64,000 nt of DNA from Trypanosoma brucei (GCA_000002445.1 CH464491.1:2080001-2144000); one strand, 5' to 3'; shown: positions 2,479 to 64,000, numbered from the stretch's first letter. The notes: generated from the letters alone by a model not told the origin. Program-made: numbers and translations.

Positions 2479-2499
2479 GATTTGCATTAATCACAAAAG

Positions 2500-18252: not shown

Positions 18253-18901
18253 AGGTGCAGCAAACGACGCACAACCTAAAGTGAGCAATGTTCGCGCATA
18301 CAAAGATAACAGTGGAGACAATAAAGGGGAAGAGATATGATAAAGATGAAGGTTGCGCGAACTGCCGCTCGCAGAAAAAAGGGGGTGGAGACGCAAAACC
18401 TCTTGCAGCATGCACACGGAAGGTAGACAATCCACGAATAGTCAGATGGCCTTGGCACAACAAAAGCAAAGTACTGTCCAACTCTCCTTGTGCGAAATGC
18501 CCAACTAAAAGGGATGAGAAGCAGTCGCGATAAATGTGGTGTCGCGACGCGTTTCCTTAACGTTAGTTAGCATAACTCACCCATCCTCCGCGACGCAATC
18601 TCCAAAAAAAAAACGGCTACCCGCATAAATACACATCAACCAAACAACACTCCAGCCAGATGGATGTGATACGCATGAAAAAAGTACGCGATTTAGTGCG
18701 ACTTATAATTGATATTGAAAACAAGTCACGCAAACACAAACTGTTAAGAACACGGCACAGATTGCATCTGGCTGAGTAAAGGGCTCATCGCACTCTCAAC
18801 TCTTGCCGATACTTCCCTGTCGACTCGAAGATAATCCCTAGCCGCTGGCCGCGTTAAGGTGGAATACTGTGAGTTAAGGAGCCGGTCTCCACGTCCAAAT
18901 C

Positions 18902-19857: not shown

Positions 19858-20077
19858 ACCCGTCAGGCCCTCGAGGAATGCATATACGTTGGGGTACTGG
19901 CTGATAAAAGTAAGGAAAATGCATAGTAAATGATGCAGACACTGATCACTAGATGTTAATCACGTAGCCCTAATATCCGAATACCTCCTCGTTAACATCA
20001 ATTGCACTGCTGTGAAAAAGATAAATCTACCGCCAAATCCAAAGAACTGACCGACACAACAAGAAATTTGGTTTTCG

Positions 20078-21042: not shown

Positions 21043-21870
21043 TACTTCCTGTATAACTATTTCTTTCCATTTAAAACAAATACAAATAGGCGCACACACC
21101 CAGCACAAACTTTTCTTCTTGGCTAACCAGAGGCAAAAAATTATCAAATTTTGTTGTTTTTTTTCCCGAACCTCCTCAAATATAAATTTCAGAGAAATGG
21201 TTGCCGTATGCAGAGCAGGCACCTTAATTTTCCTTTTTTTTTTAATTTCCCACCTCCTTTCCGCAAGACGAAGAACTGGTATACGTACCTTAGACATCTC
21301 TTAGGATCACTTCGTCTGAAGGGCACGAACAAAACTAGGAAAAGTAGAGTTAGAAAAAAAAGATGGCCAGTTAAATTTTCTTTGAACCACCGGTGTGCCC
21401 TTCGTTATTCTTCCTCCGTGTTCCAGCACTCTGTGGTTTGATTACAGAGGTCAGAGAACAGGTATGCCGCACATTTTATTAACCAATCTTTCAGTTCAGT
21501 CGTCTCCCATTCAATTTTTCTCTACCAATCTCACCCTATTACCCACTTCAATTGCTTACCTTTTACCTTCATATCCCCATGACACCGGTGATGCCTTTGT
21601 ATTGTTTGCTGCTTTCGCAGAAAGTAGATTAAACATCTATTTGACACACGAAGAAAATAGCACGTGCTTCAACTAAAGTCAGTAAGTTGAGAATAAACAG
21701 CAGCCACAATTACAAGCAACTCCATTTCTTCCCACCATTCATCGACCAGTATCGCACACCAAGCGCTTCCAACCACTCTTCTTGAACAACTGCAGGCCAA
21801 CCATTCTACCATATCCACTCTGCACTTCAATAAGTATACAAAGCAAAAAAAAATAATAATAATAACCACT

Positions 21871-24207
21871 CACACACCTGCCAGTACACTTACAGATCGT
21901 CCATGGGTTGTGGCTTGTCGCCTCCGCCGGCGGATTGGTAAGTCTTCTGGATGATGGGGTTGGTCACGCTCTGCAGAGTTTCCAGGGCAGTTTTGTACTC
22001 CTCCTTTTCGGCGTTCGGATTTTCGTCAAGGAAGCGGATCGCCTCCGCAACAGCGGTCTCCACTGCAGCCTTGTCATTGGGGTCAAGTTTCCCACCAAGC
22101 TTATCCTTATCGTTCACTTGGTTGCGTAGGGAATACGCAACGCTCTCCAGCGAGTTACGCGCATCCACACGCTCGCGCACCTTGCGGTCCTCGTCCTCGA
22201 ACTCTGCCGCTTCGCGCACCATACGCTCAATCTCCTCCTCGCTCAGGCGACCCTTGTCGTTGGTGATGGTGATCTCTTCCTTCTTTCCAGACGACTTGTC
22301 CATAGCGCTCACCTGCAGGATGCTGTTCTCGTCGACGTCAAATGTCACTTCGATTTGTGGCACACCACGCGCGGCAGGAGGAATTCCCGACAACTCGAAT
22401 TTGCCCAGGAGGCGGTTATCCTTTGTCAGCTGGCGCTCACCCTCATACACTTGGATAAGCACACCCGGCTGGTTGTCCGCATGGGTAGAAAAGACCTGAC
22501 TCTTCTTGGTGGGGATCTGTGTGTTACGCTCGATGAGTTTTGTCATGACACCACCTACAGTTTCAATACCAAGCGACAGTGGGATCACATCTACAAGCAC
22601 AACGCGCCCGCCAACCTCGCTTTCACCGGTTAGCACCGCAGCTTGCACAGCGGCACCATATGCTACGGCTTCATCGGGGTTAATACCACGGTTCAGTTCC
22701 TTCCCACCGAAGAAGTCACTGATCAGTTGTTGTACCTTCGGCACACGTGTGGATCCACCAACGAGCACAATCTCGTGGATGTCACTCTTCTTCAGCTTCG
22801 CATCCTCCAGCACACGTTGCACGGGCACGAGTGTCCCCTTGAAGAGGTCCATGTTCAGCTCCTCAAACTTCGCACGTGTGATTTTCTCGCTGAAATCGAA
22901 GCCCTCCGTAAGGCTGTCCACCTCCACACGCGCCTCGGGATGAGACGACAGCTGTCGCTTCGCAGCCTCACATGCCTTGCGAAGACGTGCCAGTGCCTTT
23001 TGGTCCTTACTGATGTCAACATTCTTTTTCTTCTTCAGCATGTCCACAAAGTGTCGCATCATGTTGTTATCAAAGTCCTCACCACCAAGGTGCGTATCAC
23101 CGTTTGTCGCCACAACTTCGAAGAAGCCCTCATCGATTGTCAGCAGTGACACATCAAAGGTACCACCACCAAGATCGAACACCAGGATATTCTTCTCACC
23201 GGCTTTGTTTAGCCCATATGCGATGGCGGCTGCGGTGGGCTCATTGATGATGCGCACTACGTTCAAACCGGCGATGGTCCCAGCATCCTTTGTCGACTGC
23301 CGTTGTGCGTCATTGAAGTACGCAGGTACCGTTACAACAGCGTTTTTCACTTTCTCGCCAAGGTACGTTTCTGCAATTTCCTTCATCTTCTGCAGCACCA
23401 TGGCACTGATCTCTTCTGGTGTGAACTGTTTCTTTTTCCCACCCACCATCACTTGTACCTTCGGCTTCCCGTCGCGGTCCGCAATGACCTCATACGACAG
23501 CAGTTTCTTGTCAGCCTGCACTGCCGCATCCGTGTACTTGCGGCCAATCAGCCTCTTGATGGTGTAGATTGTATTATGCGGATTCTGTGGAAGCTGATTC
23601 TTCGCACCGTCACCGATCAGCCGCTCTGTGTCGGTAAAGGCGACGACGGAAGGTGTGATGCGGTTACCCATCTCGTTCGGGATGATATGCACATCACCCT
23701 TCTGCCACACACCCACAACGGAGTATGTTGTGCCGAGGTCGATGCCCACGCATGGTGCTTCCACCTTGCCGCCACTTTCGGGTGCTGCTGAGACGGCTGC
23801 AACCGTCACAGTCAGGAACACCGCTGCAGTGGTCAGCCACATCCTCGACATCGGGAGGGGGATTATCTTGAACTTAATATTAGTGTTAGGTAAGTAGGTT
23901 TGTGTGTTTTAGTATGCTTAGCTTATCTTTCCAAAACAACGCGAAACGTGAAAATATGTGGAGAGGAGGTGTGGTGGGGCGATGAAAAGGGACAAATAGG
24001 GAAAAGGAAATGGTAAAACGCAGATGGCACACGGAAAGGGCAAGGCGGAAGAAGGGGTCGCCTCCAGTGCTGCCATGGGGCTCCTGCAAGTAGAGGTTAT
24101 GTGCTCTCTAGATAAAAATGCGCGTGAAGTCTGCCGCTACGGGGCAATACGCACCACAGAATTTACATAATTAAAACGAGGGATGTAAGTCCTTCCTGTA
24201 TACCCAA
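21871..24207. repeat. BiP segmental duplication block 2
   Basis: See block 1. All overlapping six-frame ORFs are identical between the blocks. Confidence 0.9.
21890..23851 (-). CDS. BiP: BiP/GRP78 copy 2 (identical protein to copy 1)
   Basis: All six-frame ORFs across 21890-23851 are identical to those across 13600-15561, so the sequences are nucleotide-identical over the whole CDS. C-terminal MDDL. Confidence 0.95.
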
Positions 24208-24838
24208 CAACACCGTTTACCTGCATTGATATTTTTTGTTTGGCCTCCCTTTCGGTAAGTCACTAGTAAATTGCTGTTGCGCAATAAATAACTATGCGTG
24301 AAACTCGTGCCGTGTACACGGTTACTGTGTTTCTTCTGAAACGGTCTTAGTAAGCCTGCTGCCATCGTAAACACAGTAACATCTTCCTGCTGTCATGTAT
24401 AAAAAGTGGAGGAACTGTTAGGTTTGAAAGCGCACTTCATTTATCTTTGCGAATCGCATGCTCATCTGTGGTATTGTTACGTCGATTCTATATTATCAGG
24501 CGTCAGCGCATATTTCCACGACAGGGCGTATTGCTACTGCTGCAATAGCCTCTCCAGTTTGGCGAAGCCATATATTTGTGAAAGGAAAGAATAACTACCT
24601 GATGTTTTGAAGATGAATGAGTTTTGGGATTTCCCCCCCCTTTGCAATGTGCATATACAAAAAAAAAGGCACGTACAAGTTTTATTTATGTTCAGTAGGT
24701 GGTGGGCGCTGTCCGAATAAGCTCATGGGTGTGTTCGGTTCTTGTTATGAAACATATACTACACAACTAGAGGGAAACATAATCCCCTCTCGTCCTTTAA
24801 CCTCTTTGCTCTCGCCTCTGCTAATGTTTGCTATCGTT

Positions 24839-50576: not shown

Positions 50577-51408
50577 AGAAATTTCATTGCAACCATAAAA
50601 TAGTCGCGCCTTCTTCACCACAGTTGGTGACTTTACAACCCATAAAGGGCCCTTACCGCGGATGCCAGATTTCTGTTGCACAAGCTTCAGACCCGTCATG
50701 ATATCAAAACCAAATCCAAGAGCATGAGCAATTTCATGTGCCGTCACGCGCATACTACTATCATGAGAAGTCAGCACTTCAGGTCCAATATTGAAAACAC
50801 CAACAGTAGGGCGATGATCCCTATACCTCGAACACGGACCTGCCCATGCTGCAGGTGAACCCATTGGACCAGCGGCACCATATAACACCATATCAGCATC
50901 GGAGACACCTGTAGTGCGGTGCTCCTGAGGAATGTTGAAGTATTTGCAAAATGTGTATACTTCAGGAACCTTTATTGGGCCTTGAACTGGTTGTACCATA
51001 AGGCGGTCGCTGTGCATCTTCAATGCATCCGGTATAACAACAGACAGAAGAGATTTCTTTTCTCTGTCAGCACGGAATCAGTTGTGCATTGTAGTACATG
51101 CCCCTAAAAATAGAGCGAGTCTGACCTTCCCTTTCACAATATTTCTTCGGGTCGTCAATATCCGATTTAAAAACCTGAAATCGAATGGGTTGCCATCCTG
51201 CCGTTGAACTCGTAACAATCGCATGCACCAGATCTCCTTTAGGTACTCGAGGCTCACCCACCACTGGAAGGTCCCGCATACTCATGTTTTTCATCAACTT
51301 GCCGAAGTCACACCGATGTGGTGGGATATTGCCTTCAGTCACATCACCACATAATATCAAACCCAATAAAAAGGGAATGACATAACGAGGGAACATAATC
51401 ACTGTCAT
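50577..51408 (-). pseudogene. GP63: GP63/major surface protease relic: frameshifted, with an in-frame stop, and 3'-truncated after the HExxH region
   Basis: Two track ORFs (51067-51477 and 50514-51023) together encode the GP63 signal peptide through VTAHEIAHALGFGFDIM...YGCNEI. An in-frame TGA plus a frameshift lies between them near 51030-51065. Homology to intact copies stops at about 50577, where unrelated AT-rich sequence begins. Confidence 0.7.
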
Positions 51409-52441
51409 ATATACACACTCAAGCGTATCAATAGATATTTGCAAATCCTTTAAATACAGTTTGGATACCACATTCATATAATAAAAAGAAATAGAAACAG
51501 AAATGTAAAGACATAGGAAATAAATATATATATAATAACAACAATATATTATTTGATTACTATCATTGTGAATGATGATAAAGGTGTGAAAACTCCATGC
51601 TCAAGTAAAGAGGGTTAGGAAAATAATACAAAAAAAAGGATCATGAGTGTCCAATGAGAGCAGCGCATCACACACGTGGGAATGATTTCGCCTTATAACA
51701 AGAAACAAATGAAAGGTTCATGCACATTAAATGAAAGAAACCAGTGAGAACACAGCACATGAAGGAATTACGTACATCAAAAGAAAAGCAAAGTACAAAG
51801 GAAAAAGAAAAAGATATATTCTTCAGATATGACAGTTACCGCTGTCGCAAGAGGAAAAAAAAGAAGAAAAAATAAAACAGAAGAATTGAACAAAGACATA
51901 ATATTCATTGATGAAAATTTATGATATGAAACATTAAACTGCTCTATCTACATCAAGCAGGAAACCATTTGATATTCCACACACATAAATTATTGTGATG
52001 TGCGCAACCGAAATGGAAAGATACGGAAGACAGTGCTGATATACATCAATACCGTCACCTCCAGGCAAAACAGTACCCAAAACATTATGTAGGTTTTCCA
52101 TTATTCATTTCAATATATCCACACAATTTCCAATTTAAGAGCAATAAAACAAACATTCAATATTTATGTATATATATATATATATATATGCTATCACTTT
52201 ACACTGGAACAGCAACAAGTGTCGTGTGATGTTGTCGTCAAAGAGATATGACGTGATAAATGACAGCGGTTCCCCATTCATAAAACAGCATGTTTGTACA
52301 TCATGTGAAAGAAAGAAAGATTGGTTAGTAATTCAACTGTTAATAAAGCACACCAAAACTCTCAACAAATGCCTGTGAAATCCAGCTAAGAAAGGCATCA
52401 TAAAGTAATTGCAGTAACAGTGCCGCTTACGCATAATATTA

Positions 52442-54271
52442 TTATAGGGAAAAAGAAACGAAGAGTAGCATATTCCACATAAAATAACTTGAATGTACAG
52501 CCCATGATGCTGCACCTGTCCCGTGCTCTGTCTCTTCAGAATCCACTGGGGAAGGCGCTTCGGAAGATTCTTCTGAAGATTCTTCGGAAGATTCTGCAGA
52601 AGATCCTTCAGAAGATCCTTCGGAAGATCCTTCGGAGGATCCTTCGGAAGATCCTTCAGAAGATCCTTCGGATGCCACCGCCGAAGGGACGGTGACCCGC
52701 TTCAACACCTTCGAGGCACACAACTCAGACTTTTTAGGACACCGAACATAACCGCTGGAGAATGTCACATTAGATGTCACATTTCTTCCCTCGGGGCAAT
52801 CATACCATTGGTCGTCATCAACAAAACGCACCTGAAGAGTATCTGGTTCACAATTCACCTCAACACAAATATCAGCAATTGCAACTATAACGTTCTTCAG
52901 CTTGAGACCCGTAGCTTTCACACACCGTGAGTTAGGTCCAATGCGACTTCCCCACATTGCATGCGGATGACCATCAGTGCAGCCGGTATTGGAGAAGAGA
53001 CGTATGTAAGGGCAGAAATCAAGCAGTTCATTGGGGCCACCCTTATTGACACGAGAAAAGTACCGATATTGCTGGGGTATTGGAGTCCTGTATAAATAAA
53101 TGGCACATGATCCCAACCCACCCCTGTCGGCGGTACAAACATTTTCACCCTTCTTTGTCGCAGATGTACAAAACACATCAGGAAAGTTGCTCTTTCCACT
53201 CTCTATACGTGTGTGTTGCAGAAAATCACAGCCTCGTCCTTTACCAAAATGCATATCTTCTTCAGTTCCCCATCTGGCTTTGTAAAAACCCATATCCTCA
53301 AATAATGCCATAGTTAGCACACTATAACGGCCTCCATCGCTGCCTTTTATACCAGCCATCATCTCTTCCATTGCGATCCTACGCTCCCAATGCGATCTAA
53401 CCGTACCCCTGCCACCTTCATCCTCCAGTTCCACACCCGTGATATCATTGCAACCATAAAATTCCTGCGCTTTCTTTACCACAGTTTGTGACTTTACAAC
53501 CCATACAGGGCCCTTACCGCGGATGCCAGATTTGGATGCCACAAGCTTCCGCTCATTCATAATATCAAAACCAAATCCAAGAGCATGAGCAATTTCATGT
53601 GCCGTCACACGCATACTACTATCATGAGAAGTCAGCACTTCAGGTCCAATATTGAAAACACCAACAACAGGGCGTCCATCCCTCAACTTCGCACACGGAA
53701 CAGCCCATGCTGCAGGTGAACCCATTGGACCAGCGGCACCATATAACACCATATCAGCATCGGAGACACCTGTAGTGCGGTGTTCCCTGGGAATGTTAAA
53801 GTTTTTGCAAAACGATTGCTCCCTATGGACCGTGATTCGTCCCTTTACTGGTTGTACCATGAGGCGATCGCTGTGCATCTTCAGTGCATCTGGTATCACA
53901 GCATCCAAAAGAGATTTCTTCTGCGATGTCAGCAAGGATTCAGTTTTGCATTTGTAGTAGATGCCCCTAAAATTAGAGCGAGTTTCACCCACATTTCCAC
54001 AATATTTCTTCGGGTCCTCAATATCCGATTTAAAAACCTTAAATCGAATGGGTTGCCATCCTGCCATTGAACTCGTAACAATCGCATGCACCAGATCTCC
54101 TTTAGGTACTGGAGGCTCATCCACCACTGGAAGGTCCCGCATACTCATGTTTTTCATCAACTTGCCGAAGTCACACCGATGTGGTGGGATATTGCCTTCA
54201 GTCACATCACCACATAATATCAAACCCAATAAACAGGGAATGACATAACGAGGGAACATAATCACTGTCAT
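52442..54271 (-). CDS. GP63: GP63 / major surface protease (leishmanolysin-like M8 zinc metalloprotease), array copy A with a C-terminal (SSEG)n linker
   Basis: The track start at 54307 is a TTG; the first ATG is at 54269-54271 (MTVIMFPRYVIPCLLGLILCGDV, a signal peptide). Zinc motif HEIAHALGFGF, downstream third His (SHWERR), Cys-rich C-half, hydrophobic C-terminal GPI-signal-like tail (...MWNMLLFVSFSL). 609 aa. Confidence 0.9.
   Translation of the reverse strand: MTVIMFPRYVIPCLLGLILCGDVTEGNIPPHRCDFGKLMKNMSMRDLPVVDEPPVPKGDLVHAIVTSSMAGWQPIRFKVFKSDIEDPKKYCGNVGETRSNFRGIYYKCKTESLLTSQKKSLLDAVIPDALKMHSDRLMVQPVKGRITVHREQSFCKNFNIPREHRTTGVSDADMVLYGAAGPMGSPAAWAVPCAKLRDGRPVVGVFNIGPEVLTSHDSSMRVTAHEIAHALGFGFDIMNERKLVASKSGIRGKGPVWVVKSQTVVKKAQEFYGCNDITGVELEDEGGRGTVRSHWERRIAMEEMMAGIKGSDGGRYSVLTMALFEDMGFYKARWGTEEDMHFGKGRGCDFLQHTRIESGKSNFPDVFCTSATKKGENVCTADRGGLGSCAIYLYRTPIPQQYRYFSRVNKGGPNELLDFCPYIRLFSNTGCTDGHPHAMWGSRIGPNSRCVKATGLKLKNVIVAIADICVEVNCEPDTLQVRFVDDDQWYDCPEGRNVTSNVTFSSGYVRCPKKSELCASKVLKRVTVPSAVASEGSSEGSSEGSSEGSSEGSSEGSSAESSEESSEESSEAPSPVDSEETEHGTGAASWAVHSSYFMWNMLLFVSFSL
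52555..52675. repeat. 12-nt in-frame tandem repeat (~10 units) encoding (SSEG)n in the GP63 copy A C-terminal linker
   Basis: cttc[ga]gaagat[tc]c reiterated. The reverse-frame KILR/KILQ ORF (52489-52695, +) is its antisense shadow. Confidence 0.85.
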
Positions 54272-54988
54272 ATATACACACTCAAGCGTATCAATAGATA
54301 TTTGCAATTCCTTAACTTACAGGATAGAAACTACATACATAGAATAAGAAAAGGAAATAGAAATAGGAATGCAAAGCCATAGGAAGATATGTAAGGTCAG
54401 AGTTAGAAATGTAACAACACACAAAATATTAATTTGTGTGTTACTGATAATGCAACCGAAGTTGTACTCAAGCATGAAAAAATAGGCATAATACTGCACA
54501 GTAACCGCATCTCAAAATACAGCACATGCGTGTGTATAGGATATATAACCTGCTGTCGCATCAGTACGCAATGGTGTCAATCAAACAATACTATCAGAGG
54601 TATCGGAGTGATTGCGGTTGTTGAACATCACGCACAACAGACATAGTTACCACATATTGTAAAAGGGAAGGAATCAACAAGGGAAAAGGAGAGGAATATG
54701 GGAAAGGGAAAGGGAAGGAAATGAATGTTGTCAGACAGGGATAACTGTTAGCAGTCGTTACTCGTCAATGTTAAATCAGAAGAGGTGTCAGGTAAACGTG
54801 TCTTCTCATCATAAGGTACAAGATTTCATTATGCGAGCACTTCCATAGAGACCTCTCTGTAACTCATGGTTGGGACTCGATAATCCAAAAATAACAACAA
54901 ACACAGATGTATCGCTACAAGTTAACTCTCTCTTAAAGGATATATTTATATATTATTACTAATTTTAGTATACCATACAGTATGATAA

Positions 54989-55336
54989 CTAAATAAACAT
55001 AGTTTCTGTAGAGAAAGTATAGGACGCATAACCATCCGTTACAGGATCCCACAACCCCCTGGAGGCAATTCTTATTCCCTGATTTACGGCCTCAGTGACG
55101 GTGGCATGAGTAACAAATTTATAACGCTCATATCCCAGGCGCACAACACGCTGCTGAATCTCACTACATATTTCTTTTATTAGTGGTTGTACATCCTCAT
55201 GCACATACGCCCGATCCCCAACGAGTGTTTGGCACACCTTTTTCAAAATGGGCTCAACGGCACTCGCTCGGAATTTAGTTCCGGGACGCGGCAGCTTAAT
55301 GGCAGGGCGCGGGGCTTCATCGTACTCGTTCACCAT
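54989..55336 (-). CDS. Tctex1-family dynein light chain
   Basis: ATG verified at 55334-55336, stop TAG (cta on the plus strand) at 54989-54991. 115 aa. C-terminal block RGLWDPVTDGYASYTFSTETMFI fits the Tctex-1 family pattern (W-D-x2-T-D-G ... terminal hydrophobic). Confidence 0.75.
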   Translation of the reverse strand: MVNEYDEAPRPAIKLPRPGTKFRASAVEPILKKVCQTLVGDRAYVHEDVQPLIKEICSEIQQRVVRLGYERYKFVTHATVTEAVNQGIRIASRGLWDPVTDGYASYTFSTETMFI

Positions 55337-56485
55337 CAGCTACGTTTGACTTCCACTTCTTTCCTCTTCTTCTTTTCTCTTGTTTTGTCCCGGGTGCTCG
55401 TGTGGATACGCGTAGACGCCTTTCTTATTTCTTCCTAAAGGCAAACAAATTGGTTAATATTCTAAACGATCACGAGCACAGATCAGTAAACACCTACACG
55501 AGGAGTATACTTCGATTTTAGAAACGAACAGAAAAGCAAAAGCAATGGCAAAAAAGAATACCAAACGAAGAAATGGAACATCATATGAATATATATAATA
55601 ACAACAATATATTATTTGATTACTATCATTACGTTAGGTAAAAGATTTATGCACTCCATGCTCAAGTAAAAGAGGGTTAGGAAAATAATACAAAAAAAGG
55701 ATCATGAGAGTCCAATGAGAGCAGCGCATCACACACGTGGGAATGATTTCGCCTTATAACAAGAAACAAATGAAAGGTTCATGCACATTATATGAAAGAA
55801 ACCAGTGAGAACACAACACACCAAGAAATTACGTACATGAAAAGAAAAACAAAGTAGAAAGATAGAAGAAAGAGATATTATTCAGATATGGCTGTAACCA
55901 CTGTCGCAAGGGGAAAATAAGAGAAGAAAAAATATAAGAAAACTATTCAACAAAGACATAATATAGGCTGATAAAATTTATGATATGAAAGGTTAAGCTG
56001 CTCTATCTACATCAAGCAGACACCCATTTGATATTCCACACACATAAATTGTAGTAACGTGCGCAACCGAAATGGAAAGATACGGAAGACAGTGCTGCTG
56101 TATACAATACCGTCACCACAAGGCAAAGCAGTAACAGAAATACATTTTTCCAGCTATTCTTTCTCTCGTTTCAGCGTATCCACACAATTTCCAATTTAAG
56201 AACAAGAAAACAAACATCCAATATATATATATATATGTTATCACTTTACACTGCAACAGCAACAAGTGTCGTGTGATGTTGTCGTAAAAGAGATATGATT
56301 TGATAAACGACACCAGCTCCCCATTCATGAAACAGCGTGTTTGTACATCATATGAAAGAAGGAAAGATTGCTTAGTAATTCAAGTGTTAATAAAGCACAT
56401 CAAAACTCTCAACAAATGCCTGTGAAATTCAGTAAAGAAAGGTATCATAAAGTAATTGCAGTAAGAGTGCCGCTTATGCATCATA

Positions 56486-58171
56486 TTATAATAGGGAAAA
56501 GCAAGAAACGAAGAGTAGCATATTCCACATTAAATAACATGAATATGCTGACCATGATGACGCGCCCTTTCCTTGTCCCTTTTGTGCCGAAGTGGTTTGC
56601 TTTACCACCTTTGAAGCACACAACTCAGACTTTTTAGGACACTGAATAGAACCGCTGGAGAATGTCACATTAGATGTCACATTTCTTCCCTCAGGGCAAT
56701 TATGCCATTGGTCGTCACCAACAAAACGCACCTGAAGAATATCTGGCTTACAATTCACTTCAACACAAATATCAGCCATTGCAACTATAACGTTTTTCAG
56801 CTTTAGACCCGTAGCTTTGACACACCGCGAGTTAGGTCCAATACGACTTCCCCACATTGTCTTCGGATCTCCATTAGTGCAGCCGGTATTCGAGAAGACA
56901 CGTATGTAAGGGCAGTAATCAAGCAGTTCACCGGGACCACCCCTGTTGCTCTGAGAAAAGTACTGGTAATGCGTAGGTAGTGAGGACTTATAAGTAGAAA
57001 TTGCACACGACCCCAGCCCAGTACGGTCAGATGTACAAATATTCTCACCTTGCTTTGTTTCCGACGTACAAAACACATCAGGAAAGTTGCTCTTTCCATC
57101 CTCTACACACCTCTTTTCCAGAAAATCACAGCCTCGTCCTTTACCAAAATGCATATCCTCTTCAGTTCCCCATTTGGCTTTGTAAAAACCCATATCCTCA
57201 AATAATGCCATAGTTAGCACACTATAACGGCCTCCATCGCTGCTTTTCAAACCAGCCATCATCTCTTCCATTGCGATCCTACGCTCCCAATGTGATTTTA
57301 CAGTTCCCTCACCACCTTCATCCTCCAGCTCCATACCTGTCAACGTATCACAACCATAAAATAGTCGCGCTTTCTTCACCACAGTTTGTGACTTTACAAC
57401 CCATACACCATTCTTACCACGGATCTCATTCCTCTTTTCCACAAGCTTCAGCTCCTCCATGATATCAAAACCAAATCCAAGAGCATGAGCAATTTCATGT
57501 GCCGTCACACGCATACTACTATCATGAGAAGTCAGCACTTCAGGTCCAATATTGAAAACACCAACAACAGGGCGCTTTCCCTTGAGCCTCGAACACGGAC
57601 CTGCCCATGCTGCAGGTGAACCCATTGGACCAGCGGCACCATATAACACCATATCAGCACCGGAAACACCTGTAGTGTAGTGATCCTGAGGAATATTGAA
57701 ATTATTGCAAAACGACTGCAGTTTAGGAACCTTAATTGGGCCCTGAACTGGTTGTACCATGAGGCGATCAGTGTGCATCTTCAGTGCATCCGGTATAACA
57801 ACAGACAGAAGAGATTTCTTTTCCTTTGTCAGCAAGGAATCAGTATTACACTGATAATTGGTACCCCTAAAGTTAGAGCGAGTTTCACCCACACTTCCAC
57901 AATATTTACTCCGATCCTCAATATCCGATTTAAAAACCTTAAATCGAATGGGTTGCCATCCTGCCGTTGAACTCGTAACAATCGCATGCACCAGATCTCC
58001 TTTAGGTACTGGAGGCTCACCCACCACTGGAAGGTCCCGCATACTCATGTTTTTCATCAACTTGCCGAAGTCACACCGATGCGGTGGGATATTGCCTTCA
58101 GTCACATCACCACATAATATCAAACCCAATAAAAAGGGAATGATATAACGAGGGAACATAATCACTGTCAT
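56486..58171 (-). CDS. GP63: GP63 / major surface protease, array copy B (no acidic linker before the GPI-signal tail)
   Basis: First ATG at 58169-58171 (MTVIMFPRYIIPFLLGL). HEIAHALGFGF. 561 aa. Ends KGQGKGASSWSAYSCYLMWNMLLFVSCFSLL. Confidence 0.9.
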   Translation of the reverse strand: MTVIMFPRYIIPFLLGLILCGDVTEGNIPPHRCDFGKLMKNMSMRDLPVVGEPPVPKGDLVHAIVTSSTAGWQPIRFKVFKSDIEDRSKYCGSVGETRSNFRGTNYQCNTDSLLTKEKKSLLSVVIPDALKMHTDRLMVQPVQGPIKVPKLQSFCNNFNIPQDHYTTGVSGADMVLYGAAGPMGSPAAWAGPCSRLKGKRPVVGVFNIGPEVLTSHDSSMRVTAHEIAHALGFGFDIMEELKLVEKRNEIRGKNGVWVVKSQTVVKKARLFYGCDTLTGMELEDEGGEGTVKSHWERRIAMEEMMAGLKSSDGGRYSVLTMALFEDMGFYKAKWGTEEDMHFGKGRGCDFLEKRCVEDGKSNFPDVFCTSETKQGENICTSDRTGLGSCAISTYKSSLPTHYQYFSQSNRGGPGELLDYCPYIRVFSNTGCTNGDPKTMWGSRIGPNSRCVKATGLKLKNVIVAMADICVEVNCKPDILQVRFVGDDQWHNCPEGRNVTSNVTFSSGSIQCPKKSELCASKVVKQTTSAQKGQGKGASSWSAYSCYLMWNMLLFVSCFSLL

Positions 58172-59218
58172 ATATACACACTGAAGCGTATCAATAGGTA
58201 TTTGCAAATCCTTAACTTATAGGACAGAAACTACATACATAGAATAAGAAAAGGAAATAGAAATAGGAATGCAAAGCCATAGGAAACATATATATATATA
58301 TATATATAATAACAACAATATATTATTTGATTACTATCATTACGTTAGGTAAAAGATTTATGCACACCATGCTCAAGTAAAAGAGAGTTAGGACAATAAA
58401 ACAAAAAAAGTGGATCATGAGGGTCCAATGGGAGCAGCGCATCACACACGTGGGAATGATTTCGCCTTATAACAAGAAACAAATGAAAGGTACATGCACA
58501 TTATATGAAAGAAACCAGTGAGAATACAGCACATGAAGGAATTACATACATGAAAAGAAAAGCAAAAACAAAGTAGAAAGAGATAGCAAACAAGGAGATG
58601 TTCTTCAGATATAGATATTACACTGCACCAACGAAGAAAAAGAAAGAAGGCAAAAAAATAAAACAGAAGAATTGAACAAAGAAGAGAATATTGATTGGTA
58701 AAGATTATGATATGAAAGGTTAAGCTGCTCTATCTATATCAAGCAGACAACCATTTGATATTCCACACACATAAATTATAGTAACGTGCGCAACCGAAAC
58801 GGAAAGAGACAGAAAAACAATGTTGCTGTATAACAATACCGTCACCACAAGGCAAAGCAGTAACAGAAATACATTTTTCCAGCTATTCTTTCTCTTGTTT
58901 CAGTATCCCCGAACAATTTCCAATTTAAGAGCAAGAAAACAAACATCCAATATATTTATTTATATATATGTTATCACTTTACACTCCAACAGCAACAAGT
59001 GTCGTGTGATGTTGTCGTAAAAGAGATATGATGTGATAAACGACACTGGCTCCCCATTCATAAAACAGCATGTTTGTACACCATGTGAAAGAAGGAAAGA
59101 TTGCTTAGTAATTCAAGTGTTAATAAAGCACATCAAAACTCTCAACAAATGCCTGTGAAATTCAGTTAAGAAAGGTATCATAAAGTAATTGCACTAACAG
59201 CGCCGTATATGCATCATA

Positions 59219-61081
59219 TTATAATAGGGAAAAGCAAGAAACGAAGAGTAGCATATTCCACATTAAATAACTTGAATATGCTGACCATGATGATGTACCC
59301 GTCAACTGTCGCGTCATTGGGGAGGACCCCTCGGAATCCTCATGGGAAGACTCTTCAGAATATTCTTCGGAAAAATCTTCAGAAGCCCCCGTAGAAGACG
59401 TCGGAGATGCCCCTTCATAAGTTTCTGCGAAAGGCGCTGCGAAAGGTCCTGTTGAAGGCCCTGGAGAGGTAACTGGGAAGGCAACTGCGGAGGGGACTGT
59501 GATCCGCCTCAGAATCTTCGAGGCACACAACTCAGACTTTTCAGGACACTGAATAGAACCGCTGGAGAATGTCACATTAGATGTCACATTTCTTCCCTCA
59601 GGGCAATCATACCAACGGTTATCACCAACAAAACGCACCTGAAGAATATCTGACTCACAATTCACTTCAACACATATATCTGCAAGAGGAACACCTTTTT
59701 TTTTTTGAAGTCTAAGCCGAGTTCCTTTGACACACCGTGAGTTAGGTCCAACACGACTTCCCAGCATTACGTTCGGATTTCCATCAGTGCAACCGGTATT
59801 CGAAAAGAGGCGTATGTAAGGGCAGTAATCAAGCAGTTCAGCGGGACCACCTTTCTTTTCGTCAGCAAAATATCGATATTGCTCAGGTATTGGAGACTCA
59901 TGTGTCTGAATGGCACATGACCCCAACCCACCACGATCAGATGTACAAAAGATCTCAGTGTCCCTGGCCTTTGACGTACAAAACACATCAGGAAAGTTGC
60001 TCCTTCCATTCTCTACACACCTCTTTTCCAGAAAATCGCAGCCTCGTCCTTTACCAAAATGCATATCTTCTTCATTTCCCCATTTGGCTCTATAAAAACC
60101 CATATCCTCAAATAATGCCATAGTTAGCACACTATAACGGCCTCCATCGCTGCTTTTCAAACCAGTCATCATCTCTTCCATTGCAATCCTACGCTCCCAA
60201 TGTGAGTTTTTCGTACCGTCACCACCTTCGTCCTCCAGCTCCACACCCTTAATTTCATTACAACCATAAAATTCCTGCGCCTTCTTTACCACAGTTGGTG
60301 ATGTCACAACCCATACATCATTCTTACCACGGATGCCAGATTTCTTTTCCACAAGCTTCAGTTCCTCCATGATATCAAAACCAAATCCAAGAGCATGAGC
60401 AATTTCATGTGCCGTCACACGCATACTACTATCATGAGAGGTCAGCACTTCAGGTCCAATATTGAAAACACCAACAGTAGGGCGTTGACCACTTACCCTC
60501 GAACACGGACCTGCCCATGCTGCAGGTGAACCCATTGGACCAGCGGCACCATATAACACCATATCAGCACCGGAGACACCTGTAGTGTAGTGGTCTCTGG
60601 GAATGCTGAAGTTATTGCAAAATGTTTGTTTTTCATAAACCTTAATTGGGTCGTGAACTGGTTGTACCATGAGACGATCAGTGTGCATCTTCAATGCATC
60701 CGGTATAACAACAGCCAGAAGAGCTTTCTTTTCCTTTGTCAGCACAGAAGCAGTTGTACACTCGTAGTATGCGTCCCTGAAGTTAGAGCGAACTTGGCCT
60801 TCCTTTTCGCAATATTTGTTCCGGTTTTTAATGTCAAAGTCAAACACCTGAACTCGGATGGGATGCCATCCTGCCGTTGAACTCGTAGCAATCGCATGCA
60901 CCAGATCTCCTTTAGGTACTGGAGGTTCATCCACCACTGGAGGTTCCCGCACACTCATGTTTTTCATCAACTTACCGAAGTCACACCGATGCGGTGGGAT
61001 ATTGCCTTCACTCACATCACCACATAATATCAAACCCAATAAAAAGGGAATGATATAACGAGGGAACATAATCACTGCCAT
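59219..61081 (-). CDS. GP63: GP63 / major surface protease, array copy C (distinct S/E/D-rich C-terminal linker)
   Basis: First ATG at 61079-61081 (MAVIMFPRYIIPFLLGL). HEIAHALGFGF. 620 aa. Linker ...SEDFSEEYSEESSHEDSEGSS... before the hydrophobic tail. Confidence 0.9.
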   Translation of the reverse strand: MAVIMFPRYIIPFLLGLILCGDVSEGNIPPHRCDFGKLMKNMSVREPPVVDEPPVPKGDLVHAIATSSTAGWHPIRVQVFDFDIKNRNKYCEKEGQVRSNFRDAYYECTTASVLTKEKKALLAVVIPDALKMHTDRLMVQPVHDPIKVYEKQTFCNNFSIPRDHYTTGVSGADMVLYGAAGPMGSPAAWAGPCSRVSGQRPTVGVFNIGPEVLTSHDSSMRVTAHEIAHALGFGFDIMEELKLVEKKSGIRGKNDVWVVTSPTVVKKAQEFYGCNEIKGVELEDEGGDGTKNSHWERRIAMEEMMTGLKSSDGGRYSVLTMALFEDMGFYRAKWGNEEDMHFGKGRGCDFLEKRCVENGRSNFPDVFCTSKARDTEIFCTSDRGGLGSCAIQTHESPIPEQYRYFADEKKGGPAELLDYCPYIRLFSNTGCTDGNPNVMLGSRVGPNSRCVKGTRLRLQKKKGVPLADICVEVNCESDILQVRFVGDNRWYDCPEGRNVTSNVTFSSGSIQCPEKSELCASKILRRITVPSAVAFPVTSPGPSTGPFAAPFAETYEGASPTSSTGASEDFSEEYSEESSHEDSEGSSPMTRQLTGTSSWSAYSSYLMWNMLLFVSCFSLL

Positions 61082-62463
61082 ATATACACACTCAAGCGTA
61101 TCAATAGATATTTGCAATTCCTTAACTTACAGGATAGAAACTACATACATAGAATAAGAAAAGAAAATAGGAATAGGAATGCAAAGCCATAGGAAGATAT
61201 GTAAGGTCAGAGTTAGAAATGTAACAACACACAAAATATTAGTGTGTGTGTGTTACTGATAATGCAACCAAAGTTATACTCAAGCATGAAAAAATAGGCA
61301 TAATACTGCACAGTAACCGCATCTCAAAATACAGCACATGCGTGTATATAGGATATATAACCTGCTGTCGCATCAGTACGCAATGGTGTCAATCAAACAA
61401 TGCTATCAGAGGTATCGGAGTGATTGCGGTTGTTGAACATCACGCACAACAGACATAGTTACCACATATTGTAAAAGGGAAGGAATCAACAAGGGGAAGG
61501 GAGAGGAATATGGGAAAAGGAAAGGGAAAGGGAAGGAAATGAATGTTGTCAGGCAGGGATAACTGTTAGCAGTTTTTACTCGTCAATGTTAAATCAGAAG
61601 AGGTGTCAGGAAAACGTGTCTTCTCATTATAAGGTATAAGATTGCATTATGCGAACACTTCCATAGAGACCTCTCTGTAACTCATGGTTGGGACTCGATA
61701 ATCCAAAAATAACAACAAACACAAATGTATCGCTATAAGTTAACTCTCTCTTAAAGGATATATTTATATATTATTACTAATTTTAGTATACCATACAGTA
61801 TGATAACTAAATAAAACATAACGAGAAGTGAATCAACCCTCCTTTACATCGAAACACCTTACGAAACAAGTATCTCGTTAGAAAACCGTAACGTGTCCGC
61901 AGCATGCTAAACGTCGCAGCAACTGTATTTGATATCATGCGAGAAACTGGAAATATGTTGTAAAAGAGAAAGAAAGGGAGAGAAAGCATGAAGAGTGAGG
62001 ACGGGACAGAAGAACTGAGAATGGTTGTCGAGCAGTAGTGACAGAGTTAGAACGCAGGGTCCTTTTGTGGTGAACTGCTCCTGTGTTCAGGAACCCAACT
62101 GCAGAGCACGCAGGTAACCCCTATTTTAGACACCGTGCGTCACATACATTATTAATCGGTCTTGTGGTGGAAAAGTAATGCCTGACTGGCGTTAGCGAAT
62201 ACGAGGGTTTCGGCTGCGTATATCGGCACTGACACGTCACAACGTGCTGATAGTGCTTCACCTTTTATCATGGCGGGTTACTTAACTTTAAAGCAGGGAT
62301 GTAGTACGGTCACCTCCCCATTGTGTAAACCTAAACCTCCTTACTCCCATTGTGGCTATGTAGTTTGCAAACAGACTTGTTGATTTTCCATTTCTTCTTC
62401 TTAGCCTTTTGACGTGGTGCTGTCAACTGGTTGAGCAGATTCGATGTAATTCACGCCCTCGTC

Positions 62464-64000
62464 CTACCAAGGTATTTCCCTAAAATCCTTGAAGAACTTT
62501 CCATATACTTTGCGATCACTATAAATGAGATCTAAGCACCGAGCAGCGGCATCGACCTCGTCCAAAGGACACAGCTGATGCTGGTCTGCGCGTCGCTCCT
62601 TTTTGGCCTTTGGTGATTCATCTGTAATCCAACCCGTGTCTACGGAGTTCATATAAATTCCATCTTGAGCATAATCCTCACCACTAGTTCTCGTCATCAT
62701 ATTGAGAGCCGCCTTTGCCATGTTTGTGTGAGGATGTGTCACCTGCTTGAACCGGTAGAACTGTCCTTCCATAGCGGAAACGTTGATGATGAAGCGTGCC
62801 TCATCCGTCACCGGATCACCAGTACGGTTTAGGAGTGCGGGTTTAAGCTTACTGTTGATGATAAAGGGTGAGAGAGCATTTATGGCCATAACCTCTGCTG
62901 CTTCGCTGCCTTGCACCTCTGCCAGTTTCATAACCCACGAGTTCGTCACGCGGTGGTCGCTCTCCTCAGCAGCCGTGTCGTAACGATCAAAAACAGAAGA
63001 TTTTGAGGAACCCACAACAAGAGGTGATCTCGCGATAGCAACCAGAACACCGCTGTGACCAGTTGCGTTGGTGTTATAGTAGGCCGTAGCGTCACCTGTG
63101 GTAATCCTCTCGTCCAGAAAAGGTTGCCGCTGAGGGTGATGTTCAATATGCAGCGGCTCTCCAATCGTTACCGACGAGTGACTAAGAAAATACTGGTGCC
63201 ACTCCCTGGATGCCGCGTCGTCGTATAGTGTCTTGTGCAGGTCTAGAGGGGGATGCGATTCCACATGCCGTAAATGCTTCGTGTACTCCCTCGTTCGCGC
63301 GATTGTCTGCGCAGCGTTGTTGATTATCGCAAATAACTTCCCAAACTTCTGCATTACAAAGGCACAGAACTGAGTGACCAGCCACATGTCACGCAGGTCC
63401 AGCGAAAAGAGATGAAGCCGGTGCGCCCACACACAGTAGTCCGCCTCTCTTTGAAACCGTGCCACTGCCTCATGAGCAAAGCGAGTGGTGCCTATTAATT
63501 CCGCACCACACCTCAGAAGGGAAAGTGCCATGGCAAAGCCGATTTTAATGCGGCAACCCGTAAGCAGCACAACCTTTCCCCGCAAATCCCGAGTCATCAA
63601 ACGCTTGTTGAAGTTATACTCACCACACAAGTGGCACATACTGTAATAATACGGGTGCAACTTATCATACCGCACACGACAGGTGTGGCATGCAATGGTT
63701 CGACTAAGCTGCAGTGCTTCATCACAAGGTATAGGACGACCGGCCGCATACTGTTGTATATCTTGGAAGACAGAAAAACTGTCGGGTTCCTCATCATCCG
63801 ACACCGGTGGCCGTGTTGGAAAATCGGAAGGTGACTCCCCCAATTCACGGTAACGTCGCTTACTGTACAACCTACGAGCTATAAATAAGTTGAGGGACGC
63901 ATCAACTGACCACTGAACACCGCTTCCATTTCCACCTGCCTTTGCGTCAGGGCTGGTGAGCGTGCCAACACTGTCGTTGGTCACGAACAGATCAATTGGT
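62464..64000 (-). CDS. zinc-finger plus short-chain dehydrogenase/reductase (SDR)-like protein, 5'-partial (ORF runs off the window end)
   Basis: Stop at 62464. The track 'M' at 63984 is a GTG and the frame stays open to 64000. Rossmann-like VVLLTGCRIKIGFAMAL (TGxxxGxG). SDR C-terminal blocks NMAKAALNMMTR and IYMNSVDTGWI. The canonical catalytic Tyr of YxxxK appears substituted (HTNMAK). N-terminal Cys/His cluster CDEALQLSRTIACHTCRV...CHLCGEYNF. Confidence 0.6.
   Translation of the reverse strand, partial: PIDLFVTNDSVGTLTSPDAKAGGNGSGVQWSVDASLNLFIARRLYSKRRYRELGESPSDFPTRPPVSDDEEPDSFSVFQDIQQYAAGRPIPCDEALQLSRTIACHTCRVRYDKLHPYYYSMCHLCGEYNFNKRLMTRDLRGKVVLLTGCRIKIGFAMALSLLRCGAELIGTTRFAHEAVARFQREADYCVWAHRLHLFSLDLRDMWLVTQFCAFVMQKFGKLFAIINNAAQTIARTREYTKHLRHVESHPPLDLHKTLYDDAASREWHQYFLSHSSVTIGEPLHIEHHPQRQPFLDERITTGDATAYYNTNATGHSGVLVAIARSPLVVGSSKSSVFDRYDTAAEESDHRVTNSWVMKLAEVQGSEAAEVMAINALSPFIINSKLKPALLNRTGDPVTDEARFIINVSAMEGQFYRFKQVTHPHTNMAKAALNMMTRTSGEDYAQDGIYMNSVDTGWITDESPKAKKERRADQHQLCPLDEVDAAARCLDLIYSDRKVYGKFFKDFREIPW

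What the first reader, a model, noticed from the sequence alone, without database searches (positions are those of the whole stretch)
50577..61810. GP63 array with a decaying edge copy, copy-specific C-terminal linkers and an embedded Tctex1 dynein light chain gene
Three intact GP63 genes plus one relic share a ~950-bp 3' flank and a short 5' leader. They differ sharply in the linker between the protease and Cys-rich body and the hydrophobic GPI-signal tail. Copy A has a 12-nt (SSEG)n repeat, copy C has an S/E/D-rich acidic stretch, and copy B has none. The edge copy (50577-51408) has a stop, a frameshift and a 3' truncation. This is typical of unequal-crossover array boundaries. Unexpectedly, a 115-aa Tctex1-family dynein light chain gene sits inside the array between copies B and A. 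A ~700-bp block upstream of copy A recurs upstream of copy C. Its homology ends within 6-7 nt of the Tctex1 stop codon (54989-54991 vs about 61809). This pinpoints a duplication breakpoint at the Tctex1 3' end. It suggests the ancestral unit was Tctex1 followed by GP63. The conserved 3' flanks are candidates for the stage-specific mRNA stability elements known to control trypanosome surface-protein expression.
Basis: seen in the sequence. Interest (0 to 1): 0.5.

Follow-up and report, generated by a model that had tools for sequence, protein, structure and literature searches.

The report
Known trypanosome GP63 array, truncated Tctex1 copy
This is the already annotated MSP-A (GP63) surface-protease gene array of Trypanosoma brucei chromosome 11, and the dynein light chain gene "embedded" in it is a 3'-truncated duplicate created by a rearrangement, so the locus is ordinary apart from one cleanly resolved duplication junction.

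Summary
The window is Trypanosoma brucei TREU927 chromosome 11. All the genes in question lie on the minus strand. Three intact GP63 genes (the annotated TbMSP-A / "Gp63-1" family), a decayed 5' fragment, the copy-specific Ser/Glu linkers and the duplicated upstream block are all real.

Corrections to the observation:
- Only three copies of the 3' flank exist. The relic has none.
- The relic has two 1-nt deletions.
- The upstream-block homology runs 10-12 nt into the Tctex1 ORF.

- Orthologues in T. vivax, T. cruzi, T. grayi, T. rangeli and Leishmania are 125-126 aa and end in ...M-HVNVVLYALYWE.
- The window copy is 115 aa and ends in ...M-FI*. It diverges exactly where the upstream block begins, at a 4-nt microhomology (TATG). 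Both parental sequences are identifiable.
- The conserved gene order is SDR-(GP63)-Tctex1-S14-LSm-P27, so GP63 lies upstream of Tctex1.
- An intact Tctex1-S14-LSm-P27 locus persists in a T. equiperdum contig.

The embedded gene is therefore a truncated segmental duplicate lacking the last beta-strand. Copy A and the relic are secondary additions. This is a modest refinement of a known locus.

The parts
62464..63984 (-). 3' part of a short-chain dehydrogenase (SDR) gene. It is the conserved upstream neighbour of the locus.
   Evidence: Pfam adh_short. 75% aa identity to the T. vivax SDR that precedes GP63-Tctex1. The same neighbour precedes Tctex1 in Leishmania.
61821..62463 (-). X: unique SDR-to-array spacer. 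Only its last 216 nt (61821-62036) are shared with the T. b. equiperdum array head.
   Evidence: Alignment of window against L010.
61200..61820 (-). U_C: ~620-nt block upstream of copy C, contiguous with X. It is the parental context of the duplicated block. TATG lies at 61817-61820.
   Evidence: Self-BLAST. Junction alignments.
59219..61081 (-). GP63/TbMSP-A copy C, 620 aa, with an S/E/D-rich linker before the hydrophobic tail. The conserved ~118-nt pyrimidine-rich leader lies at 61082-61199.
   Evidence: Pfam Peptidase_M8 E = 4e-131. Exact match to EAN79739 'Gp63-1 surface protease homolog' of TREU927. Protein alignment.
58286..59218 (-). F_C: 3' flank (3' UTR plus intergenic) of copy C.
   Evidence: 86-90% identity between F copies.
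56486..58171 (-). GP63/TbMSP-A copy B, 561 aa. The linker is deleted (about 58 aa missing). Leader at 58172-58285.
   Evidence: Pfam E = 2e-136. Exact match to EAN79738. Protein alignment.
55583..56485 (-). F_B: 3' flank of copy B.
55337..55582 (-). p246: the native upstream region of Tctex1. It is duplicated together with codons 1-113.
   Evidence: 96-100% identical to the region upstream of the intact Tctex1 in T. equiperdum L009.
54989..55336 (-). Tctex1': a 115-aa truncated dynein light chain ORF. Codons 1-113 are native. The last two codons (FI) and the stop come from block U.
   Evidence: Pfam Tctex-1 E = 1e-24, profile positions 2-90 of 95. Exact match to EAN79737. Orthologue alignment. 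Junction.
54998..55001 (-). J2: chimeric junction with TATG microhomology, shared by the intact-Tctex1 parent and the X|U parent.
   Evidence: The junction is identical in T. b. equiperdum L010.
54390..55001 (-). U_A: second copy of block U. It now supplies the end of the Tctex1' ORF and its 3' UTR, and it precedes copy A.
52442..54271 (-). GP63/TbMSP-A copy A, 609 aa, with an (SSEG)n linker from a 12-nt repeat at 52558-52672. Leader at 54272-54389.
   Evidence: Pfam E = 2e-126. TRF. Alignment. This copy is absent from the T. b. equiperdum contig.
51523..52441 (-). F_A: 3' flank of copy A.
50580..51522 (-). GP63 relic: leader plus codons 1-277 (ATG at 51406-51408, HEIAH retained). It has 1-nt deletions at 51091/51090 and 51063/51062 and a premature TGA at 51067-51069. 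GP63 homology ends at 50580 (junction J3). It has no 3' flank.
   Evidence: The truncation point is shared with T. b. equiperdum, but the frameshifts are not.

Best explanation
The region is the TbMSP-A (GP63, leishmanolysin-family) gene array of Trypanosoma brucei chromosome 11, transcribed on the minus strand.

GP63 sits where it sits in other trypanosomes: between a short-chain dehydrogenase gene and the Tctex1 dynein light chain gene. Tctex1 is followed ancestrally by ribosomal protein S14, an LSm-like gene and P27.

The array grows and shrinks by homologous exchange between ~2.9-kb units. Each unit is a leader, a CDS and a ~0.95-kb 3' flank.

On top of that, an illegitimate, microhomology-mediated rearrangement acted on one copy of the locus. 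It joined codon 113 of Tctex1 to the start of the SDR-GP63 spacer block U, through a shared TATG. This created a 115-aa Tctex1' ORF. It lacks the last beta-strand, ends in two foreign codons and carries a foreign 3' UTR. The same event placed a second stretch of array (U, copy A, relic) downstream of it.

A second illegitimate junction cuts the last GP63 copy after codon 277 and joins it to the downstream chromosome. That fragment has since picked up frameshifts in TREU927.

The intact Tctex1-S14-LSm-P27 locus survives elsewhere in brucei-group genomes. The embedded Tctex1' is therefore a redundant partial duplicate, most likely a decaying or functionally impaired copy.

What is shown and what is inferred:
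- Shown: organism and gene identities, repeat anatomy, the truncation, the junction and its two parents, outgroup synteny, and the existence of an intact paralogous locus in T. equiperdum.
- Inferred: the order and number of events, and that Tctex1' is non-functional.
For: - Identity. Exact protein matches to TREU927 EAN79734/35/37/38/39 on a 5.26-Mb contig.
- Families. Pfam Peptidase_M8 and Tctex-1.
- Repeat anatomy..
- Truncation. All 10 orthologues are 122-126 aa and end in M-HV.V....YWE. Both brucei-group copies are 115 aa and end in M-FI*. An AF2 model of the T. vivax orthologue puts the last strand at residues 113-123. Homologues in solved axonemal structures extend through this strand.
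- Junction. The window reads ...GAAACTATG|TTTATTTAGTTATC. The intact copy (L009) reads ...GAAACTATG|CATGTAAATGTC...TGGGAGTAG. The sequence upstream of copy C reads ...CTCGTTATG|TTTTATTTAGTTATC. The junction is identical in the independent T. b. equiperdum assembly.
- Intact locus. T. equiperdum OVI contig L009 carries GP63 3' flank, p246, a 125-aa Tctex1, S14, LSm and P27. It is 97.4% identical to window 55618-54998.
- Synteny. T. vivax has SDR-GP63-Tctex1-S14-LSm-P27. T. cruzi has GP63x2-DUF423x2-Tctex1-S14-LSm-P27. Leishmania has SDR-Tctex1-S14-..-P27 without GP63. S14, LSm and P27 are absent from the 64-kb window.
- Unit turnover. T. b. equiperdum has one unit fewer downstream of Tctex1'.
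- More MSP-A genes in TREU927. Tb11.0360/0370/0380 are GP63 genes (PMC2771046). They lie between the 510-aa gene Tb11.0340 and P27 Tb11.0400.
Against: - The intact Tctex1 was seen only in a T. equiperdum scaffold that has a 10-N gap just upstream. It was not seen directly in TREU927. No 125-aa brucei protein is in the protein collection.
- The missing codons 114-125 are not found after the relic. A simple insertion into Tctex1 is therefore excluded and more than one event, or a complex event, is needed.
- TREU927 and T. b. equiperdum differ upstream of the array: SDR in one, a 332-aa ORF in the other, with homology starting at 62036. The full higher-order structure is unresolved, and the reference may be collapsed there.
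- Tctex1' keeps an open frame in two strains. It has few non-synonymous changes: 2 of 6 codon differences in TREU927 against the intact L009 copy, and 1 of 2 in T. b. equiperdum. Loss of function is therefore not shown.
Confidence: 0.8

Rival explanations
1. First reader's model. The ancestral unit was Tctex1 followed by U and GP63. The block upstream of copy C is a later copy whose breakpoint happened to fall at the Tctex1 stop codon. The embedded Tctex1 is the intact resident gene.
For: U is duplicated and its homology ends at the 3' end of the Tctex1 ORF. The ORF passes Pfam Tctex-1.
Against: - Every orthologue has 12 more conserved C-terminal residues. The window copy diverges from them exactly at the U boundary.
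- X and U are contiguous downstream of SDR in two strains.
- Outgroups place GP63 upstream of Tctex1 and S14 directly downstream.
- An intact Tctex1-S14 locus exists in T. equiperdum.
- This model needs two independent breakpoints to coincide within 4 nt.
Confidence: 0.04
2. One complex replication-based event (template switching, MMBIR/FoSTeS-like) produced the whole block at once. Synthesis copied from X' through the array to Tctex1 codon 113. It then jumped back via TATG to the start of U, copied again to GP63 codon 277, and rejoined the chromosome upstream of the 261-aa gene. The alternative is successive tandem duplications followed by deletions.
For: - Microhomology at J2.
- Both copied segments start within ~220 nt of each other in the same template.
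- In T. b. equiperdum the block sits as an insertion between a 332-aa ORF and the 261-aa gene, about 20 kb downstream of P27.
Against: - The empty site and the parents of junctions J1 and J3 are not available, so microhomology cannot be checked there.
- TREU927 holds two P27 copies ten gene IDs apart. This points to large tandem units, which fits successive duplication and deletion equally well.
Confidence: 0.3
3. The arrangement in the window is partly an assembly collapse or a single-haplotype deletion. The head of a first array (SDR-X-U-C) would be joined through GP63 repeats to the tail of a last array (Tctex1'-U-A-relic). The intervening ~20-kb units (Tctex1-S14-P27...510-332-GP63x3) would be left on an unplaced chr-11 contig.
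For: - P27, the 346-aa gene, the 510-aa gene and three more GP63 genes of TREU927 carry Sanger-type IDs Tb11.0300-0410.
- P27 was still cited by those old IDs in 2013, next to new-style chr-11 IDs for other genes.
- T. b. equiperdum has a different array head.
Against: - Junctions J2 and J3 are present in an independent long-contig assembly, so the key features are real.
- I could not read TREU927 beyond the window, so collapse is neither shown nor excluded.
Confidence: 0.35
4. Tctex1' is a functional, selectively retained gene: a shortened light chain with a new C-terminus and a new 3' UTR, rather than a decaying duplicate.
For: - The frame is open in TREU927 and T. b. equiperdum. Only 2 of 6 and 1 of 2 codon differences from the intact L009 copy are non-synonymous.
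- Its native upstream region p246 is retained.
Against: - It lacks the entire terminal beta-strand, including the invariant YWE.
- Its high identity to the intact copy is equally explained by youth or gene conversion.
- No expression data were available.
Confidence: 0.12

Closest known systems
TbMSP-A (Gp63-1) gene family of Trypanosoma brucei (El-Sayed & Donelson 1997 and LaCount et al. 2003, as cited in PMC2034397 and PMC4413820)
   Same: It is this family.
- Copies B and C are exact matches to the TREU927 'Gp63-1 surface protease homolog' proteins.
- The T. b. equiperdum homologue is annotated 'major surface protease-A'.
- The copies share a family-specific 3' flank.
- The chr-11 GP63 genes are reported as bloodstream-form up-regulated.
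   Different: Nothing categorical. The papers I could read do not describe the copy-specific linkers, the relic or the higher-order duplication. The primary papers were not available to me.
Leishmania GP63/MSP tandem arrays (leishmanolysin, peptidase family M8)
   Same: A tandem array of zinc metalloprotease genes with HEXXH, a signal peptide, a hydrophobic GPI-type tail, and conserved class-specific 3' UTRs.
   Different: The origin is independent. MSP repertoires cluster by genus (PMC4413820). Leishmania has no GP63 between SDR and Tctex1.
Tctex1-type axonemal/cytoplasmic dynein light chains (Pfam PF03645; Chlamydomonas inner-arm light chain 8glv_AS, LC2 7kzm_F, human DYNLT1)
   Same: Codons 1-113 encode the two helices and the first strands of the fold.
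   Different: The window copy lacks the last beta-strand (12 residues) present in all homologues. A full-length paralogue exists in the brucei group.
Truncated genes at segmental-duplication breakpoints formed by microhomology-mediated joining
   Same: A chimeric junction with 4-nt microhomology, both parental sequences identifiable, same orientation, and a partial gene copy with a new ORF end.
   Different: It lies inside a trypanosome polycistronic unit, so the partial copy is automatically transcribed. Only one of the three junctions could be analysed.

Membership tests
Leishmanolysin / GP63 (Peptidase M8, PF01457) | Full-length match to the family profile | tested here: met
   A, B and C match at E = 2e-126, 2e-136 and 4e-131, covering profile positions ~26/57 to 526 of 529.
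Leishmanolysin / GP63 (Peptidase M8, PF01457) | HEXXH zinc-binding motif | tested here: met
   HEIAH is invariant (H225-H229 in copy A numbering) in A, B, C, the T. b. equiperdum copy and the T. vivax copy. It is also present in the relic.
Leishmanolysin / GP63 (Peptidase M8, PF01457) | N-terminal signal peptide and C-terminal GPI-addition signal | tested here: inconclusive
   A hydrophobic N-terminus (FPRYIIPFLLGLILCG) and tail (YLMWNMLLFVSCFSLL) are visible in the translations. No signal-peptide or GPI predictor was run.
TbMSP-A class | Class-specific shared 3' UTR | tested here: met
   The three 3' flanks are 86-90% identical overall and 89-94% over the first 300 nt. Over the CDS, nucleotide identity is 84-87% and synonymous divergence (dS) is 0.26-0.34. 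Classes are defined by 3' UTR (PMC2034397). The published UTR sequence was not compared.
TbMSP-A class | mRNA enriched in bloodstream forms | not testable with these tools
   Literature only. Tb11.02.5610/5630/5640 are up 3.3-4.2-fold in cultured bloodstream forms (PMC2771046). MSP-A is reported as up-regulated in bloodstream forms (PMC4413820). The mapping of these IDs to copies A, B and C is my inference.
Tctex-1 dynein light chain (PF03645) | Significant match to the family profile | tested here: met
   E = 1e-24, 87 bits against a cut-off of 22.8.
Tctex-1 dynein light chain (PF03645) | Complete fold including the C-terminal beta-strand | tested here: not met
   The match stops at profile position 90 of 95. 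The 12 C-terminal residues, including the invariant Y-W-E, are missing. The model of the orthologue places strand E113-123 there.
Segmental duplication with a microhomology-mediated junction | Chimeric junction, both parental sequences identifiable, short shared bases at the joint | tested here: met
   Three-way comparison of the window junction, intact Tctex1 (L009) and X|U upstream of copy C. TATG is shared. The junction is identical in L010.
Retroposed (processed) gene copy | Copy limited to the mRNA, with a poly(A) tail and no upstream intergenic DNA | tested here: not met
   The duplicated tract includes ~500 nt upstream of the ATG (p246 and the end of the GP63 3' flank). It ends inside the CDS with no A-run.

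The most novel reading that the evidence does not exclude
The truncated Tctex1' is expressed from within the bloodstream-enriched MSP-A array, using the borrowed U 3' UTR. Lacking its terminal strand, it would act as a stage-biased modifier or poison subunit of a dynein complex. Separately, the locus would really be a stack of ~20-kb higher-order repeats, collapsed in the reference, that hides extra MSP-A and housekeeping gene copies.
Probability: 0.1. Interest if true: 0.45.

Novelty: already known. Interest (0 to 1): 0.25.

Why it matters
For the scan, this shows the finding is an annotated reference-genome locus (TbMSP-A) and not a new system.

The one piece that adds knowledge is evolutionary. 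It is a fully resolved duplication junction, with both parents and a 4-nt microhomology. The junction shows how a trypanosome surface-protease array spread past its conserved neighbour and left a truncated dynein light chain gene behind.

There are three practical consequences:
- The 115-aa 'dynein light chain, putative' should not be treated as the orthologue of Tctex1 in functional or phylogenetic work.
- MSP-A copy number varies between strains.
- The reference may under-represent this region.

Tried and rejected
- I searched for the missing Tctex1 C-terminus (HVNVVLYALYWE) after the relic and across the whole window in six frames. It was not found. This rejects a simple insertion of U-A-relic into an otherwise intact Tctex1.
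- tblastn of the T. vivax and T. cruzi downstream neighbours (S14, LSm-like, P27) against the window gave no hits. They are not within 50 kb downstream.
- I first took the 510-aa gene upstream of the T. b. equiperdum array to be the SDR. tblastn showed it is unrelated, and I corrected this.
- The second S14 locus (L006-L008: Pkinase-S14-ATP synthase subunit) is an unrelated paralogue.
- Exact-protein look-ups of the window's 261-aa protein and of copy C for genomic context were 'not on record'. TREU927 could therefore not be read beyond the window.
- Copy A from either candidate start is not in the protein collection.
- Marcoux 2010 and Yao 2010 are not held.
- Literature searches by gene ID gave only fragments. 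I could not establish what Tb927.11.7740 is. PMC9536576 calls it Tctex-type.
- dN/dS is about 0.4 everywhere. The variable islands also have raised dS. This argues for mosaic ancestry, not demonstrable positive selection.
- ARAGORN found no tRNA.
- The bacterial promoter and terminator tools, the phage and plasmid tools and Rfam were judged irrelevant for a trypanosome locus and were not used.

Full report
**Identity of the window**

Exact protein look-ups place the window on the 5.26-Mb chromosome 11 record of Trypanosoma brucei brucei TREU927.
- The 115-aa ORF is EAN79737, 'dynein light chain, putative'.
- GP63 copies B and C are EAN79738 and EAN79739, 'Gp63-1 surface protease homolog'.
- The 261-aa and 974-aa ORFs downstream are EAN79735 and EAN79734.

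All genes of interest lie on the minus strand, so transcription runs from high to low coordinates.

**Checking the observation**

*Domain searches*
- Pfam gives Peptidase_M8 for the three long ORFs at E = 1e-126 to 1e-136.
- Both ORF pieces of the relic also match Peptidase_M8.
- The 115-aa ORF matches Tctex-1 at E = 1e-24.
- The gene at 62464-63984 matches adh_short (SDR).

*Repeat unit*
- The unit is ~2.9 kb: a ~118-nt pyrimidine-rich leader, the CDS and a ~0.95-kb 3' flank (F).
- F exists three times, after C, B and A. It does not exist four times. Nothing beyond 50580 matches it.

*Relic*
- It keeps the leader and codons 1-277, including HEIAH.
- It has two separate 1-nt deletions, at 51091/51090 and 51063/51062, which create a TGA at 51067-51069.
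- It loses GP63 homology at 50580.

*Linkers*
- They are as described. Copy A has a 12-nt repeat x9.6 at 52558-52672 encoding (SSEG)n.
- Copy C has an S/E/D-rich stretch, and copy B has a ~58-aa gap.
- The T. vivax orthologue lacks the linker altogether.

*Block U*
- U_A (54390-55001) equals U_C (61200-61820) at 93-95% identity.

**The junction at Tctex1**

Base-level comparison shows that U homology does not stop short of the Tctex1 stop codon. It contains the stop, the last two codons and a TATG that overlaps codon M113.

Ten orthologues were aligned, from T. vivax, T. grayi, T. rangeli, T. cruzi, T. melophagium, Leishmania and free-living relatives.
- They are 122-126 aa and end in ...M-HV-V----YWE, with Y, W and E invariant.
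- The two brucei-group proteins are 115 aa and end in ...M-FI*.
- An AlphaFold model of the T. vivax protein places the last beta-strand at residues 113-123.
- Homologues in solved axonemal dynein structures all extend through it.

The embedded ORF is therefore a Tctex1 copy that has lost its terminal strand.

**Both parents of the junction**

A T. equiperdum OVI contig (L009) carries, in order:
- the end of a GP63 3' flank;
- the same 246-nt upstream region;
- Tctex1 codons 1-113, 97.4% identical to window 55618-54998;
- the native codons CAT GTA AAT ... TGG GAG TAG;
- S14, an LSm-like gene and P27.

The sequences at the joint are:

| Source | Sequence |
|---|---|
| Window Tctex1' | ...GAAACTATG\|TTTATTTAGTTATC |
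| Intact Tctex1 (L009) | ...GAAACTATG\|CATGTAAATGTC |
| Upstream of copy C | ...CTCGTTATG\|TTTTATTTAGTTATC |

The window junction is thus a chimera of these two sequences, with 4 nt (TATG) of microhomology. The identical junction is present in the independent T. b. equiperdum contig (L010), so it is real and predates the split of these strains.

X and U are contiguous downstream of the array's upstream neighbour in both strains. U upstream of copy C is therefore the parental context, and U after Tctex1' is the derived one.

**Synteny**

| Species | Gene order |
|---|---|
| Leishmania (Mundinia) | 188aa-411aa-SDR-Tctex1-S14-163aa-P27, no GP63 |
| T. vivax | 188aa-456aa-SDR-GP63 (one unannotated ORF)-Tctex1-S14-LSm-P27 |
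| T. cruzi | GP63-GP63-DUF423-DUF423-Tctex1-S14-LSm-P27 |

- Tctex1 is thus the old resident. GP63 is the newcomer, and it lies upstream of Tctex1.
- The window follows this order (SDR-C-B-Tctex1) up to codon 113 and then departs from it.
- S14, LSm and P27 are nowhere in the 64 kb.
It also explains why a dynein light chain gene is 'inside' the array.

**Higher-order structure (partly resolved)**

*T. b. equiperdum.* One contig reads, on one strand:
LSm-P27-300aa-REH2-like-S10-PPR-S10-coiled-coil-510aa-332aa-X'(216 nt)-U-GP63-F-p246-Tctex1'-U-truncated GP63-261aa-974aa.
- There, the block from X' to the truncated GP63 lies about 20 kb downstream of P27.
- That block has one unit fewer than TREU927, with no intact copy A.
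- Its truncated GP63 has the same 3' junction but lacks the TREU927 frameshifts.

*TREU927.*
- P27 exists twice (Tb11.0300 and CAJ17015).
- The 346/301-aa gene also exists twice (Tb11.0310 and Tb11.0410).
- The 510-aa gene is Tb11.0340.
- Tb11.0360, 0370 and 0380 are further GP63 genes (PMC2771046).
- Together these indicate large, ~10-gene tandem units containing a second MSP-A array.
- P27 was still cited by its old-style IDs in 2013 (PMC3814921). This suggests an unplaced contig, so the reference may be collapsed between arrays.
- I could not read TREU927 beyond the window. The number and order of events therefore remain inferred. They could be successive tandem duplications plus deletions, or one template-switching event.

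**Evolution of the copies**
- The leader and the first ~180 nt of CDS are 94-99% identical between copies.
- Two islands (aa ~61-110 and ~361-410) and the linker are 68-89% identical.
- dN/dS is about 0.4 throughout. The islands also have high dS (0.6-0.9 against ~0.2 elsewhere). This fits a mosaic of old and recently converted segments better than demonstrable positive selection.
- F is 86-90% identical overall and 89-94% over its first 300 nt. That is less diverged than synonymous sites in the CDS (dS 0.2-0.34).
- This fits constraint or homogenisation of the class-specific 3' UTR.
- The TbMSP classes were defined by their 3' UTRs and stage-specific expression (PMC2034397). MSP-A is up in bloodstream forms (PMC4413820; PMC2771046).

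**Tctex1' itself**
- Compared with the intact L009 copy, TREU927 Tctex1' has six codon differences, two of them non-synonymous. The T. b. equiperdum copy has two, one non-synonymous.
- The high-identity tract between the two loci covers only ~830 nt (55830-54998). The GP63 flank further upstream is 80-88% identical.
- The similarity may therefore reflect recent conversion rather than selection.
- Whether the protein is made or works is not known.

**Verdict**

The locus is the known, annotated TbMSP-A array. The added value is a clean demonstration that the embedded dynein light chain gene is a truncated segmental duplicate, formed at a TATG microhomology.

Noticed in passing
window 13574-15920 and 21864-24211; 18897-19859 and 20082-21045: A 2.35-kb duplication at 99.8% identity carries a 653-aa HSP70/BiP-like ORF. 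Between its two copies lies a tandem pair of DUF423 genes at 98.9% identity. In T. cruzi the DUF423 pair lies directly upstream of Tctex1, not 30 kb downstream of it.
   Followed up: partly
window ~5680-6563: A convergent strand-switch region lies between plus-strand genes (171-5680) and the long minus-strand gene run. ARAGORN finds no tRNA gene anywhere in the window.
   Followed up: partly
L010:10336-11885 (T. b. equiperdum contig QSBY01000015.1): This strain lacks an intact copy A. U is joined directly to a truncated GP63 that has an 18-nt in-frame deletion and none of the TREU927 frameshifts, but the same 3' truncation junction. MSP-A unit number is therefore polymorphic.
   Followed up: yes
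window 62036 / L010:6072: Homology between TREU927 and T. b. equiperdum upstream of the array starts abruptly here. TREU927 has the SDR gene upstream. T. b. equiperdum has coiled-coil, 510-aa and 332-aa ORFs. This is a third rearrangement junction (J1) whose origin I could not resolve.
   Followed up: partly
L001:6872-8620 (T. vivax GCA_021307395.1): A full-length GP63 ORF (582 aa, 48-50% identical to copies A-C) between SDR and Tctex1 is not among the genes called for that assembly.
   Followed up: partly
L009:706-715 (T. equiperdum OVI contig CZPT02001540.1): A 10-N scaffold gap has overlapping sequence on both sides, just upstream of the intact Tctex1. The link between the GP63 3' flank and Tctex1 in this contig crosses that gap.
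   Followed up: no
TREU927 genes outside the window (Tb11.0300-Tb11.0410): P27 and its 346/301-aa neighbour exist twice, ten IDs apart, with three GP63 genes (Tb11.0360-0380) between. This suggests a ~10-gene tandem duplication on a contig that may be unplaced in the reference.
   Followed up: partly
window 52160-52189 and 58288-58308: (AT)n microsatellites sit inside or at the end of the 3' flank. The first is within F_A. The second is at the junction of F_C with the leader of copy B.
   Followed up: no
literature (PMC9536576): Tb927.11.7740 is reported as a Tctex-type light chain that is not strongly cilium-localised in TrypTag. By my gene count the window copy should be about Tb927.11.7620-7630. 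I could not establish what 7740 is.
   Followed up: partly
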